A stretch of 21,928 nt of DNA from an uncultured archaeon (lineage in GTDB: Archaea > Asgardarchaeota > Lokiarchaeia > Sigyniarchaeales > SOKP01): the NCBI GenBank assembly GCA_964632315.1, contig CAZWEM010000027.1:33614-55541 (forward strand), read 5' to 3'. Under the pieces are notes generated by a model. The model searched no databases and was not told the DNA's origin. It worked only from the letters and a program-made list of their open reading frames with translations. Numbering within the stretch: the first letter of the stretch is position 1; each line of letters starts with the position of its first letter. Positions 2,658 through 21,928 of this stretch are shown one piece after another. A program made the translations under genes and the position numbers.

Positions 2658-3956
2658 TTGAATATTGTTATAGGTATTGACGGGGGAAGTTTTAAGCATC
2701 TCAATATTGTGTTGCAAAGAGGATTAACACCTAATTTTAAGCGATTAATTGAAAATGGATTTTCTGCTAATCTTAGAGTGACCAATCCTCCAATTACTAT
2801 CCCATCGTGGCCCTGCACATTCTCAGGATTAACTCCTGAAGATCTAGGGTTCTATTATTTTACTCATCCTGATAAAGGCTTATTTAATTCCTCATATTGG
2901 AGAAATAAGTCGATTTTTTCACTAATCAACGAAAAATCTTTTATAATGAATGTCCCAGGAACATTCCCCTCTTGGAAAGTTAACGGAGAAATGATAACTG
3001 GTATGCTTTCTCCATCCATTAGTTGTTTTCCTTCAGAACTTAAACTCTCAATTCAAAAAAATTGGATTATAGATGCTGACAATGTTCCAGAATCCTTTTT
3101 TGCATTTAAGCAAAAATCCTCACTATTTCTAGAGAAAATGAAGGAAGATTTCAAATTTTTAACGTATGTAATAAGAATTCCAGATAATTTAACTCACCGT
3201 TCACATGGGGGAAAAGAAAAAACTTTAAGCTTAATCTATCAAGTATATTTAAAAATTGACAAGTTTCTTGGTAAAATTCTTGAGAATGAACAAGTTGATA
3301 ATATAATTATCGTTAGTGATCACGGTCTGAAACACTATTCTAAAGGATTTTATATCCGAAGATGGTTAGAGAAAAAAGGGATATTATTTATTAATACCCC
3401 AAAACCTAATAAACTGTTAAATGTACTACTAAAATCGTTTGACTTCATCAGGTTGTTTGTTAATAGCAGTTATTTAAAAAAATATTTTAACAAATTTTTA
3501 CATCTGAAGATTATAAAGTCTAAAATAAAGATTCCCCAACATTCTATAATGAAGATTGATCGAAATATAACACGTGTTAAAAATTTTTGTTCTAATATTG
3601 GAGGAATTATCTTGATTGGAAAGGATAAACAAAAAAATGGAATTTTATACAAGGAATTACTAAAGTCTCACTATGTAGATAACGTGATCAGGTCAACCTC
3701 TGAAGATTTTCCTGATTTCATTGTTTCTCTTAAGAAAGATTATTATTTCTGTGAGGAATCTTCCCTATATATAAAGAGAAGGAGAGATATCATTGATCAT
3801 AGCAATAAAGGACTATTTATTGCATATGGAAAAAATATTAAATCCGGGAAAGAGGATTTCGTTTCTTATCAAAATGTAGCTCCAACTTTATTAAAATTGT
3901 TAAACATCGCCAAACCAGACTACATGAAAGGAGAAGCTTTGGATATCATTAATTAG
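2658..3956 (+). CDS. AlkP-superfamily COG3379-like protein (predicted Thr nucleophile)
   Basis: GIDG metal-ligand Asp, PPITIPSW nucleophile motif, NVPGTFP, DNLTH, SDHG, C-terminal DH and VAPTLL..MKG. TTG start with GGAG upstream. No signal peptide evident. Confidence 0.88.
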   Translation: MNIVIGIDGGSFKHLNIVLQRGLTPNFKRLIENGFSANLRVTNPPITIPSWPCTFSGLTPEDLGFYYFTHPDKGLFNSSYWRNKSIFSLINEKSFIMNVPGTFPSWKVNGEMITGMLSPSISCFPSELKLSIQKNWIIDADNVPESFFAFKQKSSLFLEKMKEDFKFLTYVIRIPDNLTHRSHGGKEKTLSLIYQVYLKIDKFLGKILENEQVDNIIIVSDHGLKHYSKGFYIRRWLEKKGILFINTPKPNKLLNVLLKSFDFIRLFVNSSYLKKYFNKFLHLKIIKSKIKIPQHSIMKIDRNITRVKNFCSNIGGIILIGKDKQKNGILYKELLKSHYVDNVIRSTSEDFPDFIVSLKKDYYFCEESSLYIKRRRDIIDHSNKGLFIAYGKNIKSGKEDFVSYQNVAPTLLKLLNIAKPDYMKGEALDIIN

Positions 3957-3973
3957 TCAGTAATTGAAAAGAC

Positions 3974-5200
3974 TCAGAGGTTTTTTCTTTTTCTAAGTTT
4001 TTCTCCTCTGAAAATTAATAATTCAAAAGCTATGTAGAGGTGAACAAAAGCTTCTACATAGATATAAAACAGTATCTTGACAAAAAATAAGATATTCACT
4101 GATATTTGAAACTCCTTTTCCACGGCCTTATTAAAAAAAATTAACCTTCTAATTTTAAGGAGGAAAGAACTAATAAAAATAACAATACCTAAAGAGACAA
4201 ACCCAAAATTTACAAATATTAGGAAGGGATAAATCAATAAATATGCTCCTAAAATTGTTACGATAATTACCTTTAAGATCGTTTTTTTAAGATTAGTTTC
4301 AAATGAGTAAATTCGTGCATTTTCATTCCATCGGATTTTTTGCTTTACCCAAGATCTAATAGTATCTGGTATAACACTGTAAATACCCGCTCGATAATTA
4401 GGTAATCTAAAAATTTTAAATCCTTTTGAAATGATATCATGCCCCCGTGAGCTATCCTCTGCCCAATTTCTATTTGTATTAAATTGACCAACTGCTTTTA
4501 TCACTTTATATGATACTACAGTACTAGATCCTCCTATTGATTTTCCTTTGTATAGACTATATTTATTTCTAAAAAAATAGTAACGATTAAATTTGTGATA
4601 TTTAATAAGATCTTTATCTTTTTGATAATCTAACGGCCTGTGACCCGCTACGACGACATCTTCTCCATTATTGACAATAGGGTAAATCATTCTTAATAAT
4701 ATTTCATCAGTGAAAAGAACGTCAGCATCAACCATAAACACTAACCCTTCAGTGAGGTAACCTAAGCAATCATTTAATGCAGCTATCTTTCCTCGTCCAG
4801 TCTTTTGAATCAAAATCAGAAATACTTTGCTTTCTTTAAACTTGTTAGCTATTCGGATAGTCTCCTCGCTACCACCCGCATTCACAATAACTCTAAGCTT
4901 AGGATAATTAAGTTCTGAGCAAGAGATTAAGGATTTCTCGAAATGTTCTCCTTCGTTCCAAGCGGGAATAAGAATATTAACTAAAGGGAGATCTTTTAAA
5001 TCTTGTAGTCTTATTGTTTTAGGTCCCTGATATTGCTTCAAAGGTTTTAAATATCTTCTGTCTCTTAAGAAAATTAGCACTATATGGATAATTATAATAC
5101 TAGGAATCATAATGATTAAAAATTCAATTGAATTTAGAAACTTCCAGATCTCGTTAACCCAAAAATATAATGAATCAACAATTTCCATATCAACACTCAT
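3974..5200 (-). CDS. Membrane-bound GT2 glycosyltransferase with processive-type signature
   Basis: N-terminal TM, ILIPAWNE, GKIAALN, DAD, ED, QKIRW (QxxRW), several C-terminal hydrophobic helices. Confidence 0.88.
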   Translation of the reverse strand: MSVDMEIVDSLYFWVNEIWKFLNSIEFLIIMIPSIIIIHIVLIFLRDRRYLKPLKQYQGPKTIRLQDLKDLPLVNILIPAWNEGEHFEKSLISCSELNYPKLRVIVNAGGSEETIRIANKFKESKVFLILIQKTGRGKIAALNDCLGYLTEGLVFMVDADVLFTDEILLRMIYPIVNNGEDVVVAGHRPLDYQKDKDLIKYHKFNRYYFFRNKYSLYKGKSIGGSSTVVSYKVIKAVGQFNTNRNWAEDSSRGHDIISKGFKIFRLPNYRAGIYSVIPDTIRSWVKQKIRWNENARIYSFETNLKKTILKVIIVTILGAYLLIYPFLIFVNFGFVSLGIVIFISSFLLKIRRLIFFNKAVEKEFQISVNILFFVKILFYIYVEAFVHLYIAFELLIFRGEKLRKRKNL

Positions 5201-5373: not shown

Positions 5374-6621
5374 ATGAAACCTAGAAATGTTATCTTAGGG
5401 ATCGATGGCATTCCTTATGAATTGATGAAAAATCTCTCTGATAAGGATATTATGCCGAATTTTAAAGAGTTGTGTAAAAATTACATATTTCTTCGATTAA
5501 AATCTTCAATTCCTCATATCTCATCCGTGTCTTGGAGTTCAATTATCACTGGCAAGAATCCAGGTGAGCATGGTATTTTTGGGTTCACAGACATTATCAG
5601 AAACACTTACTCACTGAGTTTTCCAAATTTCAACACCTTAAAATGCAAGCCCTTTTGGCATAATAAGCCATCTCAAAGACACATAATCTTAAACGTTCCT
5701 TCTACATATCCAGCAAAAGAACTGAACGGCATTCATATTGCAGGTTTTGTCGCCTTGGATTTAAAAAAAGCAACTTATCCCATGGAATATGTTGAATTTT
5801 TGAAAAACTTAAAATATGAAATTGATATTGATACCAGTTTAGCTCATGAACAATCTCAAGAATTATTATTTAACGAATTAAGTCGTGTGTTATCTATTAG
5901 AAAAAAAACATATCAAAGCTTATGGAATGAATTTAAATGGGATAATTTTATGGTCGTCATTACTAGTACCGACAGGTTTGGCCATTTCTTATGGAATACA
6001 TACGAGAATGAAAATCATGAAAATCATGATAGATGTTTATCTTTTTTTAGAGAAGTAGACGATTTTATCGGAGATATTTACAGTAAATTAGGTGAAAATG
6101 ATACTTTTATAATTTTATCAGATCATGGCATGGAAAGTGTTAATGTAAATTTTAACCTAAACACCTTTTTAGAACAAGAAGGATATCTAAAATTAGGTTC
6201 AGAGGGCAAAAATTACAATCGAATATTGAAAGAAACAAAAGCTTTTGTGTTAGATCCGGGTAGGGTTTACTTAAACCGAAGTAAAAGATATCCAAATGGA
6301 AGTGTTAGTGAGTCGGAAGGAAAATCAATTCTTGATGGTTTAAAGAATTCCTTGCTTGACTTGAAATATGAAGGAAAAAAGGTTATAAAGAAGATTTATG
6401 AAAAAGAAAAGATATACCATGGTCCTTATGTAAATCTTGCTCCCGATTTAGTAATTCATGAAGAATCTGGTTATCAACCAAAAGGTAATATTGGAAAGAT
6501 AAATTTATTTGAAAAGGATAATTTTAGTGGCATGCATAATGCTAATGCATTTATTCTAATAAATAAGGATATTGATATTGAATATCCTTCTGTAGAAAAT
6601 ATAATTGAGTTTATGGTTTGA
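5374..6621 (+). CDS. AlkP-superfamily COG3379-like protein (predicted Ser nucleophile)
   Basis: GIDG, SSIPHISSVSWSSIITGKNPGEHGIFGF, NVPSTYP, DRFGH, SDHG, APDLV, SGMH. Its stop overlaps the TTG of the next gene (TTGA at 6618-6621). Confidence 0.9.
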   Translation: MKPRNVILGIDGIPYELMKNLSDKDIMPNFKELCKNYIFLRLKSSIPHISSVSWSSIITGKNPGEHGIFGFTDIIRNTYSLSFPNFNTLKCKPFWHNKPSQRHIILNVPSTYPAKELNGIHIAGFVALDLKKATYPMEYVEFLKNLKYEIDIDTSLAHEQSQELLFNELSRVLSIRKKTYQSLWNEFKWDNFMVVITSTDRFGHFLWNTYENENHENHDRCLSFFREVDDFIGDIYSKLGENDTFIILSDHGMESVNVNFNLNTFLEQEGYLKLGSEGKNYNRILKETKAFVLDPGRVYLNRSKRYPNGSVSESEGKSILDGLKNSLLDLKYEGKKVIKKIYEKEKIYHGPYVNLAPDLVIHEESGYQPKGNIGKINLFEKDNFSGMHNANAFILINKDIDIEYPSVENIIEFMV

Positions 6622-18920: not shown

Positions 18921-18960
18921 TTTTTTAATGATATTTAATTATATTTAATTAAAATTTATT
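18921..18960 (+). promoter_or_regulatory. 10-bp phased direct repeats upstream of the RHH-sat operon (candidate promoter/operator)
   Basis: ttttttaatg / atatttaatt / atatttaatt / aaaatttatt, ending 15 nt before the RHH ATG. The background is very AT-rich. Confidence 0.3.
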
Positions 18961-18975
18961 TTAACGTGAATATTT

Positions 18976-19215
18976 ATGTCAGAAGAAGAACATAAAGTTG
19001 AATATACCACGGTTTCTATACCAAAACCACTAGCAGATAAGGTAAAAGAACGAATGAAGGGTACTGGCTTTTCTTCAGTTTCAAGTTATGTTACTTACGT
19101 ATTAAGGCAAGTACTTTCTTCAATTGAATCCGAGGAAAAAGAAAGAGAAGCTTTTACTGAAGAAGAAGAAGAGAAAGTAAAACAAAGACTTCGAGATCTT
19201 GGCTATATCGATTAA
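18976..19215 (+). CDS. CopG/ribbon-helix-helix protein with acidic C-terminal RLRDLGY tail
   Basis: YTTVSIPKPL beta-strand, helix A, GFSSVSSYVTYVLR helix B, then EEEEEKVKQRLRDLGYID. Confidence 0.88.
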   Translation: MSEEEHKVEYTTVSIPKPLADKVKERMKGTGFSSVSSYVTYVLRQVLSSIESEEKEREAFTEEEEEKVKQRLRDLGYID

Positions 19216-19256: not shown

Positions 19257-20405
19257 ATGATTCAACCACATGGTGGAAGATTAGTCAATAAAGAATTACC
19301 TAAAATGGAAAAAGAAAGGATTTTAGGTGAATCAGATGAGTTTTATAAAAAAACTGTTAATCCCCAGACGTTAAAGGTAATAAAGAACATTGCTTATGGG
19401 GTTTTTAGCCCATTAGAAGGATTCATGAATGAAAATGATTTTCATTACGTCCTTGACGAAATGTATCTTCAAAATAATTTAGCGTGGCCAATACCGATTG
19501 TACTTGATGCTGATAGAGAAGAAACCCAACAATATCAAGTGGATGATCGGATCATTTTAACCAATCAATCTGGAATTCCCCTTGCTATCATGTCAATAGA
19601 GGATATATATAGTTATGAAAAGCAAGAATTCGCAGAAAAAGTATATGGAACGTTAGATCAGAATCATCCTGGAGTACAAAGTGTTTACGATCTTAAAGAA
19701 ATACTAATTGGGGGAGAAATATTTTTATTAAATGAACCTAAAGCTGTTTTTCCAAGTTTAGATCTAAAGCCTTTAGAAACACGAGTGCTATTCAAACAAA
19801 AAAAATGGGATAAAGTGGTCGCATTTCAAACTCGGAATCCACCTCATTTAGGACATGAATACGTCCAAAAAGCTGGCCTTACTTATGTCGATGGTTTATT
19901 CATTAACCCTGTAATCGGAAAGAAAAAAAGCGGGGATTTCAAGGATGAAGTTATAATAGAATCATATCAAGCATTAATTAAAGAATATTATCCTCAAGAT
20001 AGGGTAGTATTAAGCACTTTTGAAACAGAAATGCGATATGCTGGACCAAAGGAAGCAATATTTCATGCAATAGCTCGAAAAAATTTTGGATGTGATCATA
20101 TCATTATCGGTCGAGATCACGCCGGAGTAGGAAATTATTATGGACCATATGATGCGCATTACATCTTTGATAAATTTCCTGACCTTGGAATTGAGCCAAT
20201 TAAATTTCGATCTTTTTCAAAATGTAGCAAGTGTAACGCGGTTGTTAATGATAAAATTTGCCCACACCCACCTGAAATGCAAAACTATTTTGCTGGGAGG
20301 GATATTCGAGCCGCTCTTAGTGCAGGAAAACCACCCGACACAGAAGTAATGCGTCCTGAAGTAGCAGAAGTCATTTTAAAGTATAAAAATCCTTTTGTTG
20401 ATTAA
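19257..20405 (+). CDS. sat: Sulfate adenylyltransferase (ATP sulfurylase)
   Basis: PHGG, FSPLEGFM, WPIPI, FQTRNPPHLGH, MRYAGPKEA, GRDHAG, CxxC...CPH zinc site. Confidence 0.97.
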   Translation: MIQPHGGRLVNKELPKMEKERILGESDEFYKKTVNPQTLKVIKNIAYGVFSPLEGFMNENDFHYVLDEMYLQNNLAWPIPIVLDADREETQQYQVDDRIILTNQSGIPLAIMSIEDIYSYEKQEFAEKVYGTLDQNHPGVQSVYDLKEILIGGEIFLLNEPKAVFPSLDLKPLETRVLFKQKKWDKVVAFQTRNPPHLGHEYVQKAGLTYVDGLFINPVIGKKKSGDFKDEVIIESYQALIKEYYPQDRVVLSTFETEMRYAGPKEAIFHAIARKNFGCDHIIIGRDHAGVGNYYGPYDAHYIFDKFPDLGIEPIKFRSFSKCSKCNAVVNDKICPHPPEMQNYFAGRDIRAALSAGKPPDTEVMRPEVAEVILKYKNPFVD

Positions 20406-20434: not shown

Positions 20435-21823
20435 TTGAGTAATAATAAAAAAGTCTTACTTATTGGGTTAGATTGTGCTACACCACGCACCCTTTTTCAA
20501 GATTTCATAGAAGAATGTCCAAATATAAAAAAGTTGATGGAAAACGGTGTTCATGGAAAACTAAGAAGTAGTGATCCTCCCATTACTGTTCCCGCTTGGA
20601 TGGTAATGGCAACAGGCAAAAAACCAGGCACGTTAGGAGTATATGGATTTCGCCATAGAAAAGGTAATTCTTATAATGATTTTTGGGTGGCTAATTCTCA
20701 GACAATTAAAGAAGAAAAAGTCTGGGACATTATTAGCAAGGAGGGTTTGAAATCAATTCTTTTAGGAATTCCTCCGACTTTTCCGCCTCAACCGATAAAT
20801 GGAAATTTAATTACAGGATTTATTACTCCCGATGCACGATCAAATTTCACCTATCCTCCAGAATTGAAGGAGGAGATTATGAATAACGTGACGGATGATT
20901 ACACTTTCGATGTTTTATTCAGAACCGAAAAGAAAGAAGATTTACTCGTAAATCTATATAAGATGACTAAATTACATTTTGCTACCGTTAAATATTTAAT
21001 ACAGAATAAGGAATGGAATTATTGTCAATTTGTTATCATTGGTTTGGACAGAATACATCATGGTTTTTGGAAATATTATGATAAATTTCACCATAAACAT
21101 GAACCAGGAAACATGTTCGAAAGTGTGATTAAAAATTTTTATAAATTTCTTGATAAGCAAATTGGTGAACTTTTAGAACTAATTGATGATAACACTACAG
21201 TCATAATCGCTTCTGATCACGGTGCTAAGGCAATGAAGGGATGTTTATGCGTGAATATGGCTTTACAAGAATTAGGTTTACTTAAATTCAAAGAAAAAGC
21301 TAAATCAGGAACTCGTTTAGAAGATGCTAAAATTGATTGGAATAAAACCTATGCTTGGGGGTGGGGGGGATATTATGCTCGCATCTTTCTCAACTTGAAA
21401 GGTCGTGAGGATCTTGGAATAATCGAACCAGAAGAATATGAATCATGGAGATCTAAAGTACAAGAGTTATTGAAAAGCGTTCCTGATGATAAGGGAAAGC
21501 CAATGAACACAATCATTCATAAACCAGAAGATTTGTTCCAAAATGTTCGGGGTGATGCACCTGATTTGATGGTTTATTTTGATGATTTGAATTGGAGGTC
21601 GGCGGGTACAGTTGGATATAAATCAATGTATTTAGATGAAAATGATACTGGTCCAGATGATGCTGTTCACGATTATCATGGGATTTTTATCATATCAGAT
21701 CCGAAAAAGAAGATAGGTAAGAATCTTGGGACTAAGAATATATTAGATATCGCCCCAACCATTTTGAATATTTTTGGAGTCGAAATTCCCGCCGATATGG
21801 AAGGTAAATTAATAGAATTTTGA
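20435..21823 (+). CDS. AlkP-superfamily COG3379-like protein between sat and cysC (predicted Thr nucleophile)
   Basis: GLDC, SSDPPITVPAW..MATG, YGFRHR, DRIHHGFW, SDHG, WGWGGYYARIF, ENDTGPDDAVH, DIAPTIL..MEG. TTG start with GAGG upstream. Confidence 0.9.
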   Translation: MSNNKKVLLIGLDCATPRTLFQDFIEECPNIKKLMENGVHGKLRSSDPPITVPAWMVMATGKKPGTLGVYGFRHRKGNSYNDFWVANSQTIKEEKVWDIISKEGLKSILLGIPPTFPPQPINGNLITGFITPDARSNFTYPPELKEEIMNNVTDDYTFDVLFRTEKKEDLLVNLYKMTKLHFATVKYLIQNKEWNYCQFVIIGLDRIHHGFWKYYDKFHHKHEPGNMFESVIKNFYKFLDKQIGELLELIDDNTTVIIASDHGAKAMKGCLCVNMALQELGLLKFKEKAKSGTRLEDAKIDWNKTYAWGWGGYYARIFLNLKGREDLGIIEPEEYESWRSKVQELLKSVPDDKGKPMNTIIHKPEDLFQNVRGDAPDLMVYFDDLNWRSAGTVGYKSMYLDENDTGPDDAVHDYHGIFIISDPKKKIGKNLGTKNILDIAPTILNIFGVEIPADMEGKLIEF

Positions 21824-21856: not shown

Positions 21857-21928
21857 ATGGAGCATAAAGGATTTACATTATGGTTTACTGGATTAGCTTG
21901 TTCTGGTAAAACAGTATTAGCTAATGCT
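21857..21928 (+). CDS. cysC: Adenylyl-sulfate (APS) kinase, N-terminal 24 aa; runs off the right edge
   Basis: Not in the ORF track. Translation MEHKGFTLWFTGLACSGKTVLANA matches the CysC N-terminal WxTGLxxSGKT P-loop and lies downstream of sat. Confidence 0.88.
   Translation, partial: MEHKGFTLWFTGLACSGKTVLANA

What the first reader, a model, noticed from the sequence alone, without database searches (positions are those of the whole stretch)
18976..19215. RHH protein carries the 'EEEEE-VKQRLRDLGYI' tail normally seen on AlkP/sulfatase-like enzymes; the enzymes here lack it
Seen: the 79-aa RHH ends FTEEEEEKVKQRLRDLGYID (19153-19212). The three complete AlkP paralogs stop right after the catalytic core (...MEGKLIEF, ...MKGEALDIIN, ...SVENIIEFMV). 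From my recollection of the family, an acidic 'RLxxLGY' helix is a common C-terminus of COG3379 and sulfatase-like proteins. Inference: a split architecture in which the RHH supplies the tail in trans. It could be a docking or activating helix coupling transcription to enzyme state, or a Tyr-based sulfo-carrier, by analogy with the C-terminal Tyr acyl shuttle of DltX.
Basis: partly seen in the sequence, partly recalled or inferred. Interest (0 to 1): 0.78.

Follow-up and report, generated by a model that had tools for sequence, protein, structure and literature searches.

The report
Regulator tail that plugs a sulfation enzyme
A small DNA-binding protein that heads a widespread "activated sulfate" operon ends in the same 20-residue peptide that related enzymes carry on their own ends, and modelling places that peptide in the active site of the tail-less enzyme encoded two genes downstream, which suggests an undescribed way of coupling gene control to enzyme state.

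Summary
ORF 18976-19215 encodes a 79-aa ribbon-helix-helix (RHH) protein ending FTEEEEEKVKQRLRDLGYID.

- **Tail conservation:** L72, G76 and Y77 are the only invariant columns of a large family (909 clusters at 50% identity).
- **Same tail on enzymes:** A profile built only from RHH tails hits the extreme C-terminus of PF01663 (COG3379-type) and sulfatase proteins in other Asgard genomes. In addition, 84 of 120 homologs of one such enzyme end in it.
- **Gene context:** The RHH is the first gene of a cassette RHH-sat-AlkP-cysC, found in Asgard, Bathyarchaeia, Thaumarchaeota, Aminicenantes, Firmicutes and others. The cassette AlkP carries no tail in 0 of 80 loci, while 68 of 80 loci have a tail-bearing small protein.
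- **Predicted binding:** A complex prediction puts RHH residues 58-79 in the AlkP cleft, with Tyr77 on the nucleophile Thr51. The score was 0.89 against 0.01 for the best control. This is a model, not a measurement.
- **Candidate operator:** TAATTA-N4-TAATTA at 18936-18951 is conserved across archaeal phyla.

Best reading: an antitoxin-like or TnrA-like regulator whose tail docks on the enzyme. Counter-examples exist, because some cassettes lack the AlkP gene. First readers noted the same idea on other genomes in this scan.

The parts
18936..18951 (.). Candidate operator: two palindromic TAATTA hexamers 10 bp apart, ending 24 nt before the RHH start codon
   Evidence: One exact site in the window against 0.05 expected and 6 in the 4.45-Mb genome. 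In 80 related loci (731 kb), 32 of 33 exact sites lie within 160 bp upstream of an RHH ORF; the 33rd is upstream of a TauE gene beside the cassette.
18976..19215 (+). 79-aa RHH-type regulator with a C-terminal tail; first gene of the cassette
   Evidence: Single copy in the genome.
19003..19116 (+). RHH core (residues 10-47): extended strand TTVSIP, helix 17-27, and the start of helix 35-59
   Evidence: AF2 pLDDT 94-95 over this part. NikR RHH domain E=0.019. 5 of 79 family members hit PF01402.
19153..19212 (+). Tail FTEEEEEKVKQRLRDLGYID (residues 60-79): acidic run, amphipathic helix 62-75 and LGY cap. Tyr77 is 19204-19206.
   Evidence: L72, G76 and Y77 are the only invariant columns of the family. 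Predicted contact residues are 58-60, 63-65, 67-69 and 71-79.
19257..20405 (+). sat, ATP sulfurylase
   Evidence: PF01747 and PF14306; NF003166 at 487 bits
20435..21823 (+). Tail-less AlkP-superfamily enzyme (462 aa), the predicted docking partner. The nucleophile Thr51 is 20585-20587.
   Evidence: PF01663 E=2e-47. Predicted interface residues: 50-52, 71-73, 83-90, 116-117, 129-136, 159-163, 294-295, 310-313, 390-392, 403-408.
21857..21928 (+). 5' end of cysC (APS kinase), cut by the end of the contig
   Evidence: Translation MEHKGFTLWFTGLACSGKT.... Full-length cysC follows the AlkP gene in related loci.
2658..3956 (+). Second tail-less AlkP paralog (432 aa)
   Evidence: PF01663 E=3.5e-26
5374..6621 (+). 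Third tail-less AlkP paralog (415 aa)
   Evidence: PF01663 E=6.7e-39

Best explanation
The 79-aa protein is the autoregulator of the sulfate-activation cassette RHH-sat-AlkP-cysC. Its N-terminal RHH domain is inferred to bind tandem TAATTA hexamers spaced 10 bp apart, which overlap its own promoter and, elsewhere in the genome, the promoter of a TauE/TSUP permease. Its C-terminal 20 residues are the same peptide module that many COG3379-type and sulfatase-type enzymes carry on their own C-terminus. In this cassette the enzyme lacks the module and the regulator carries it. The tail is predicted to fold into a helix and lie in the active-site cleft of the cassette AlkP enzyme, with LGYID over the metal site and Tyr77 against the nucleophile Thr51. 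The inferred consequence is that enzyme and regulator titrate each other. Free enzyme captures the tail, and substrate or a covalent enzyme intermediate would release it, so operon expression follows enzyme occupancy and thus PAPS supply. The enzyme may in turn be capped when idle. The architecture (RHH plus an enzyme-binding tail) is that of RHH antitoxins, and the logic is that of TnrA/GlnR with glutamine synthetase. Shown here: the shared tail, the gene linkage and the conserved DNA motif. Predicted: the docking. Inferred: the regulatory logic and its direction.
For: Family and tail:
- 909 clusters have E<1e-3, and 128 of the best 150 end in GY plus 1-3 residues.
- The only invariant columns are L72, G76 and Y77.

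Same tail on enzymes:
- The RHH-tail profile hit 10 long ORFs at their very C-terminus. All 10 are AlkP superfamily, PF01663 or PF00884.
- 84 of 120 homologs of the tailed enzyme P0285 carry it.

Linkage:
- RHH-sat-AlkP-cysC is found in 3 of 3 close genomes, in 16 of 20 Asgard loci chosen by tail hits, and in 68 of 80 loci found through the AlkP gene across archaeal and bacterial phyla. The cassette AlkP has a tail in 0 of 80.
- The RHH is 85-89% identical where Sat is 73-77% and the AlkP 67-71%.

Docking:
- ipSAE was 0.89, 0.90 and 0.89; the best of 3 controls was 0.01. This mark was reached by 58 of 80 solved complexes and 2 of 110 mismatched pairs. Runs share at least 94% of their contacts, and partner pLDDT is at least 71.
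- Y77 touches T51, G71 and F72.
- No COG3379 structure is solved; the nearest are NPP and phosphonoacetate hydrolase at 13-16% identity, so the pass cannot come from a remembered solved complex.
- In the AF2 model of a cis-tailed enzyme the C-terminal extension is confident: pLDDT 97-98 for residues 471-500 and 80-90 for the tail.

DNA:
- A triple repeat precedes a small ORF plus a TauE permease in the same genome.

Analog:
- The TnrA and GlnR C-tails fold into a helix on glutamine synthetase; the TnrA site abuts the active site (PMC4335299).
Against: There is no experiment, and the docking is a model of a 35-residue piece, not of the RHH dimer on DNA. I could not read coordinates of the cis-tailed enzyme model, so 'same pocket in cis' is inferred.

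The partner cannot always be the cassette AlkP:
- In G041 and G058 the slot between sat and cysC holds a DHH phosphoesterase and a P-loop sulfotransferase, yet the RHH with its tail stays.
- In a Komeilibacteria contig the RHH heads cysD-cysN plus an ABC transporter, with no AlkP gene within 5 kb.
- A second copy in G038 lies next to ABC, CobW and FeS genes.
- In L039 the RHH sits next to an AlkP that has its own tail.

Many genomes hold both RHH-tail proteins and cis-tailed enzymes. L-x-x-L-G-Y is a general helix C-cap (my knowledge) and also ends many cassette CysC proteins (32 of 65). The bacterial cassettes show no TAATTA repeats.
Confidence: 0.55

Rival explanations
1. The tail is an oligomerisation or cooperativity helix of the regulator, joining RHH dimers bound at neighbouring TAATTA sites in the way the C-terminal coiled coil of Mnt does. 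The enzymes use a similar helix for their own assembly, and there is no regulator-enzyme contact in the cell.
For: Operator hexamers come in arrays of 2 to 4 at 10-bp spacing, which suits cooperative binding. The tail is an amphipathic helix with a standard LGY cap. The RHH with its tail persists in operons that have no AlkP gene. The tail gives weak matches to coiled-coil and PG_binding helices.
Against: It does not explain why every long ORF with the tail at its very C-terminus is an AlkP-superfamily enzyme. It does not explain why the cassette enzyme never has the tail. It also does not explain the strong, control-separated docking prediction at the active site.
Confidence: 0.2
2. The tail senses a small ligand. 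The acidic helix and Tyr, in the RHH dimer or tetramer, bind PAPS, PAP, APS or a metal directly. The enzyme tails are lids that bind the same ligand.
For: The RHH always accompanies sulfate-activation genes, whether the route is Sat or CysDN and whether or not an AlkP gene is present. RHH regulators with C-terminal effector parts are known, such as NikR and MetJ (my knowledge).
Against: Twenty residues are too few to make a nucleotide pocket. An acidic tail is a poor binder of anionic nucleotides. No tool here could test ligand binding.
Confidence: 0.1
3. Tyr77 is a substrate or carrier. The AlkP enzyme sulfates Tyr77 using PAPS, either to mark the regulator as a PAPS gauge or to make an aryl-sulfate carrier that serves the other tail-less AlkP paralogs.
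For: Tyr is invariant and is predicted to touch the nucleophile Thr51. Aryl sulfates are classic substrates of this superfamily (my knowledge). AlkP- or sulfatase-fold proteins act as N-glycan sulfotransferases in Halobacterium salinarum (PMC11980604). The genome has about 10 tail-less paralogs and a single tail.
Against: A subclade of enzymes has tails ending ...LGKI or ...LKGKI without Tyr. The conserved operator points to a transcription factor rather than a carrier. There is no chemical evidence.
Confidence: 0.1

Closest known systems
RHH antitoxins of type II toxin-antitoxin modules (RelB, ParD, CcdA, FitA type)
   Same: A small protein with an N-terminal RHH operator-binding domain and a C-terminal tail that folds on and covers the active site of the enzyme encoded downstream. 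The operon is autoregulated according to the ratio of the two proteins (my knowledge of these systems). The architecture and predicted contact here are the same.
   Different: The partner is a metabolic AlkP-fold enzyme inside a PAPS-synthesis operon, not a toxin. Two genes, not one, separate... rather, sat lies between the RHH and the enzyme. The tail is also found fused to paralogous enzymes in cis. The window's protein gave no hit to an antitoxin Pfam model.
TnrA and GlnR with glutamine synthetase in Bacillus subtilis (PMC4335299)
   Same: A roughly 15-residue C-terminal tail of the transcription factor folds into a helix on a metabolic enzyme; for TnrA the site abuts the active site. The contact sets both DNA binding and enzyme activity, so expression follows metabolite load.
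   Different: TnrA and GlnR have a winged helix-turn-helix fold, not an RHH. The enzyme is unrelated. Glutamine synthetase has no paralogs that carry the tail in cis.
C-terminal tail of COG3379-type PF01663 and sulfatase-like enzymes
   Same: The same 20-27-residue module: [ST]-x-E-[DE]-E-E-x-[VI]-[KR]-x-R-L-[RK]-x-L-G-Y-[ILV]-[DEG] at the extreme C-terminus.
   Different: Here it is attached to a DNA-binding domain and encoded as a separate gene. I found no paper on the tail's role in the enzymes.
Agl30 and Agl31, N-glycan sulfotransferases of Halobacterium salinarum (PMC11980604)
   Same: They are AlkP- or sulfatase-fold proteins that add sulfate to glycans, encoded in a glycosylation cluster. 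This is the likeliest kind of activity for the AlkP paralogs of this window.
   Different: No regulator or tail is described for them. I could not fetch their sequences to check for the tail.
NikR, an RHH regulator with a C-terminal sensor part
   Same: It is the best solved-structure sequence match to the RHH core, with E=0.019 over profile positions 9-50.
   Different: NikR has an ACT-like nickel-binding domain of about 80 residues, not a 20-residue peptide. It is not a family member.

Membership tests
Ribbon-helix-helix (CopG/Arc/MetJ) superfamily | Strand-helix-helix topology in about 45 residues | tested here: met
   AF2 model: extended 10-16, helix 17-27, helix from 35, with pLDDT 94-95.
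Ribbon-helix-helix (CopG/Arc/MetJ) superfamily | Significant match to an RHH sequence or structure profile | tested here: inconclusive
   The window's protein has no Pfam hit at E<0.01. 5 of 79 family members hit PF01402, best 2.7e-5. NikR scores E=0.019. Foldseek's top rows include RHH proteins (Reg576, PutA DNA-binding domain, PcfF), but all have E>1.
Ribbon-helix-helix (CopG/Arc/MetJ) superfamily | Binds repeated operator half-sites as a dimer or higher oligomer | not testable with these tools
   Indirect support only: conserved TAATTA-N4-TAATTA arrays upstream of the gene.
COG3379/sulfatase C-terminal tail module | Acidic run followed by R-L-x-x-L-G-Y-[ILVM] within 3 residues of the C-terminus | tested here: met
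   The window protein ends EEEEEKVKQRLRDLGYID. The same pattern ends 84 of 120 enzyme homologs.
COG3379/sulfatase C-terminal tail module | A profile built from one carrier class finds the other | tested here: met
   The RHH-only profile A1 hits enzyme C-termini at per-genome E-values of 8.9e-10 to 2.5e-3. Against the 120 enzyme homologs, 75 matches score 15 bits or more and 73 of them are terminal.
Type II antitoxin (RHH class) | A toxin gene immediately adjacent in the same operon | tested here: not met
   The neighbours are sat, an AlkP enzyme and cysC.
Enzyme-titrated transcription factors (TnrA/GlnR-GS kind) | The transcription factor's tail binds a metabolic enzyme at or near its active site | tested here: inconclusive
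   Predicted only: score 0.89 against 0.01 for the best control, with contacts to T51 and the 403-408 loop.
Enzyme-titrated transcription factors (TnrA/GlnR-GS kind) | Binding depends on the enzyme's ligand state and changes DNA binding | not testable with these tools
   Needs biochemistry.

The most novel reading that the evidence does not exclude
Tyr77 of the tail is sulfated by the AlkP-fold enzyme. That would make the RHH either a PAPS gauge read out by tyrosine sulfation of a transcription factor, or a protein-borne aryl-sulfate carrier that feeds the other tail-less AlkP paralogs of the glycan locus. Cis-tailed enzymes would then carry their own carrier arm.
Probability: 0.1. Interest if true: 0.92.

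Novelty: new variant of a known kind. Interest (0 to 1): 0.78.

Why it matters
If the docking is real, it would have four consequences.

- It gives a function to a conserved C-terminal peptide found on many uncharacterised COG3379-type and sulfatase-like enzymes in glycan loci of archaea and bacteria.
- It shows that an antitoxin-like design (an RHH plus an enzyme-plugging tail) has been used to regulate a metabolic pathway.
- It offers the first handle on how PAPS synthesis for glycan sulfation is controlled in Asgard and other uncultured archaea.
- It gives a concrete operator (TAATTA repeats) and a small regulon (the sat cassette and a TauE permease) that can be tested in vitro without growing the organism.

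Tried and rejected
- A word-based search for longer proteins sharing the exact tail of this protein found only one short-contig chimera with a DnaB N-domain (P0210). This looked like 'no enzyme tails', but the profile search of genomes overturned it.
- The search for related loci with the full RHH alignment failed because no stretch was conserved enough.
- Foldseek of the RHH monomer against PDB gave nothing significant.
- A Halomarina homolog could not be placed on a contig.
- The literature searches I ran found nothing on the tail or on an RHH in sulfate-activation operons.
- I looked for TAATTA repeats in bacterial cassettes and saw only an ordinary sigma-70-like promoter.
- I considered HbYX-type proteasome docking and PDZ-type recognition of a C-terminus, and dropped both. 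Tyr sits at -2 or -3 from a variable end and nothing in the context points there.
- I did not try a covariation test between tail and enzyme. The tail hardly varies, and kinship would confound the result.

Full report
**What is in the sequence**

ORF 18976-19215 (+) encodes 79 residues ending AFTEEEEEKVKQRLRDLGYID. It is followed by three genes:
- sat (19257-20405; PF01747 and PF14306);
- a 462-aa PF01663 AlkP-superfamily gene (20435-21823);
- the first 24 codons of cysC (21857-21928), cut by the contig end.

Two more PF01663 genes lie at 2658-3956 and 5374-6621. In the whole 4.45-Mb assembly the RHH is single-copy. It is the only real ORF with L..LGY near its end. None of about ten AlkP-superfamily ORFs has the tail.

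**The small protein and its tail**

The word-based search found 777 homologs. The best 120 are 84-99% identical, nearly all are 79 aa, and sources label them with several Asgard lineages. The exhaustive search found 909 clusters at 50% identity with E<1e-3. Almost all are 65-100 aa and match over residues 9-79. Of the best 150 representatives, 128 end in GY plus 1-3 residues; the rest look truncated or frameshifted.

In an alignment of 79 full-length members, the only invariant columns are L72, G76 and Y77, all in the tail. The RHH assignment rests on several lines of evidence:
- topology: AF2 pLDDT 87, with an extended stretch 10-16 and helices 17-27, 35-59 and 62-75;
- a weak match to the NikR RHH domain, E=0.019;
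- PF01402 hits for 5 of 79 members;
- the source annotations.

Foldseek gave only non-significant RHH neighbours.

**Is the tail the tail of AlkP and sulfatase enzymes?**

Yes. A 27-column profile built only from RHH tails (A1) was run over 201 Asgard genomes. Besides short RHH-sized ORFs, it hit long ORFs. I fetched eleven regions. Ten ORFs of 419-567 aa carry the match at their very C-terminus, for example ...LTKGEEDEVIERLRDLGYLD.

- Eight are PF01663 or PF00884 by Pfam, and two by BLAST to these.
- An eleventh hit is a split PF01663 gene (L016).
- One hit is internal, in a 1228-aa protein of unknown kind (L019).
- Two weak hits were not examined.

In the other direction, 84 of the 120 best homologs of the tailed enzyme P0285 end in the motif. 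JGI names several of them 'predicted AlkP superfamily phosphohydrolase/phosphomutase'. The RHH-tail profile scores 75 matches at 15 bits or more among these homologs, and 73 of them are terminal. A subclade has Tyr-less variants (...LKELGKI).

L-x-x-L-G-Y is also a common helix C-cap (my knowledge). It ends 32 of 65 cassette CysC proteins. The shared stretch here is much longer than the cap.

**Gene context**

In three close genomes the order is RHH-sat-AlkP(460-462 aa)-cysC. Of 20 Asgard loci picked by tail hits, 16 show the cassette, often with two RHH paralogs.

Starting instead from the AlkP gene, 80 loci were kept from 563 relatives. They come from Asgard, Bathyarchaeia, Thaumarchaeota, Archaeoglobaceae, Methanomethylicota, Aminicenantes, Eubacteriales, Desulfotomaculum, Omnitrophota and Actinomycetota.

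- 68 loci have a tail-bearing small protein.
- 9 of the other 12 are cut at a contig end just upstream.
- None of the 80 AlkP genes has a tail.

Enzymes with their own tail lie in glycan clusters with glycosyltransferases and without an RHH.

There are exceptions:
- L039 has an RHH next to a tailed, split AlkP.
- In G041 and G058 a DHH phosphoesterase and a P-loop sulfotransferase replace the AlkP gene.
- A Komeilibacteria RHH heads cysD-cysN and an ABC transporter.
- Another RHH precedes a short sulfatase-like gene.
- A second copy in G038 is in an unrelated context.

The constant partner is therefore sulfation, not one particular enzyme.

**Docking**

AF2 of the cis-tailed enzyme (86-row alignment) gives pLDDT 93 and pTM 0.92. 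The C-terminal extension is confident: 97-98 for residues 471-500 and 80-90 for the tail helix 511-523. I could not read the coordinates.

The one complex job paired the cassette AlkP (18-row alignment A4) with RHH residues 45-79 (alignment A2).
- ipSAE was 0.89, 0.90 and 0.89, and the best of three controls was 0.01.
- This mark was reached by 58 of 80 solved complexes and 2 of 110 mismatched pairs. These counts hold only roughly, because my own alignments were used.
- The runs share at least 94% of their contacts, and partner pLDDT is at least 71.
- The interface covers RHH 58-60, 63-65, 67-69 and 71-79.
- On the enzyme it covers 50-52, 71-73, 83-90, 116-117, 129-136, 159-163, 294-295, 310-313, 390-392 and 403-408.
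- Thr51 is the invariant residue at the nucleophile position (PPITVPAW), and Y77 touches T51, G71 and F72.

No COG3379 structure is solved. The nearest are NPPs and phosphonoacetate hydrolase at 13-16% identity, and none covers the tail. The model supports binding; it does not show it.

**DNA**

Upstream of the gene lies TAATTA-TATT-TAATTA (18936-18951).
- It occurs once in the window, against 0.05 expected.
- It occurs six times in the genome.
- Across the 80 loci (731 kb) there are 33 exact sites. 32 lie within 160 bp upstream of an RHH ORF, in Asgard, Bathyarchaeia, Nitrosopumilales, Hydrothermarchaeota, DHVE2 and Methanobacteriota.
- The 33rd lies upstream of a TauE gene beside the cassette.

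In the window's own genome, a triple repeat sits just before a 51-codon ORF and a TauE/TSUP permease on another contig. Bacterial cassettes lack the repeats.

**Reading**

The regulator role is well supported. The trans-docking is supported by every computational test available, but it is not measured. The direction of control, and whether the tail caps, completes or is modified by the enzyme, are inferences.

AlkP- and sulfatase-fold N-glycan sulfotransferases are known (Agl30 and Agl31; PMC11980604). The nearest mechanistic parallels are RHH antitoxins (my knowledge) and TnrA/GlnR with glutamine synthetase (PMC4335299).

Earlier notes of this scan raised the same idea on other genomes from memory, and one follow-up described the cassette. 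They were leads only.

Noticed in passing
G000:C7:64658-64683 (L125:3059-3084); ORFs L125:3094-3249 and 3262-4050: Three TAATTA hexamers at 10-bp spacing lie directly before a 51-codon ORF and a TauE/SafE (TSUP) permease gene. In another genome, TauE and a 43-codon ORF lie right upstream of the RHH cassette (L002:4971-5943). This points to a small regulon that includes an anion transporter.
   Followed up: partly
L093:6372-6962, L094:6387-6932, L099:6526-7092 and others: Cassette APS kinases often end in a tail-like ...RLNDLGYID or ...KLRNLGYID. 32 of 65 complete CysC proteins have L..hGY in their last 14 residues, and one hits the tail profile at 8.5e-6. This could be a helix cap shared by chance or a third carrier of the motif.
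   Followed up: partly
L031:7996-9625 (and the equivalent stretch of L032): A variant cassette: RHH-sat-DHH phosphoesterase-P-loop sulfotransferase-cysC. The AlkP slot is filled by a classical sulfotransferase plus a likely PAP phosphatase, which fits a sulfotransfer role for the AlkP enzyme.
   Followed up: partly
P0404 (757 aa, Patescibacteria): A fusion of a PAPS_reduct (CysD-like) domain, PF01663 and the LGY tail in one protein.
   Followed up: no
P0301, P0302, P0308-P0312, P0325, P0344 and others; L026:6704-8281: A COG3379 subclade whose C-terminus is a Tyr-less variant of the tail (...KERIKELKALSKI, ...RRLKELGKI, ...KLKLKGKI).
   Followed up: no
P0136, P0147, P0180, P0186, P0204; L081:1492-2139; L101:3075-3815: Proteins of 203-246 aa that have an extra N-terminal RHH_10/DUF7557 domain before the RHH and tail, sitting in the regulator's place upstream of sat.
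   Followed up: partly
L019:799-4485: A 1228-aa protein with an internal copy of the tail motif (EEEEVKEQLEDLGYID at about residue 230) and a DUF4379 zinc-finger match. Its kind is unknown.
   Followed up: no
L016:538-2080 and L039:4166-5747: Tailed PF01663 genes split into two adjacent ORFs (333+182 aa and 253+269 aa). These may be frameshifts, assembly errors or real splits.
   Followed up: no
L126:3078-3093, L124:3000-3015: Further exact TAATTA-N4-TAATTA sites in the own genome. One lies 46 bp before an FeS/ferredoxin gene followed by a molybdopterin oxidoreductase; the other lies between a ferritin-rubrerythrin gene and a ferredoxin gene.
   Followed up: partly
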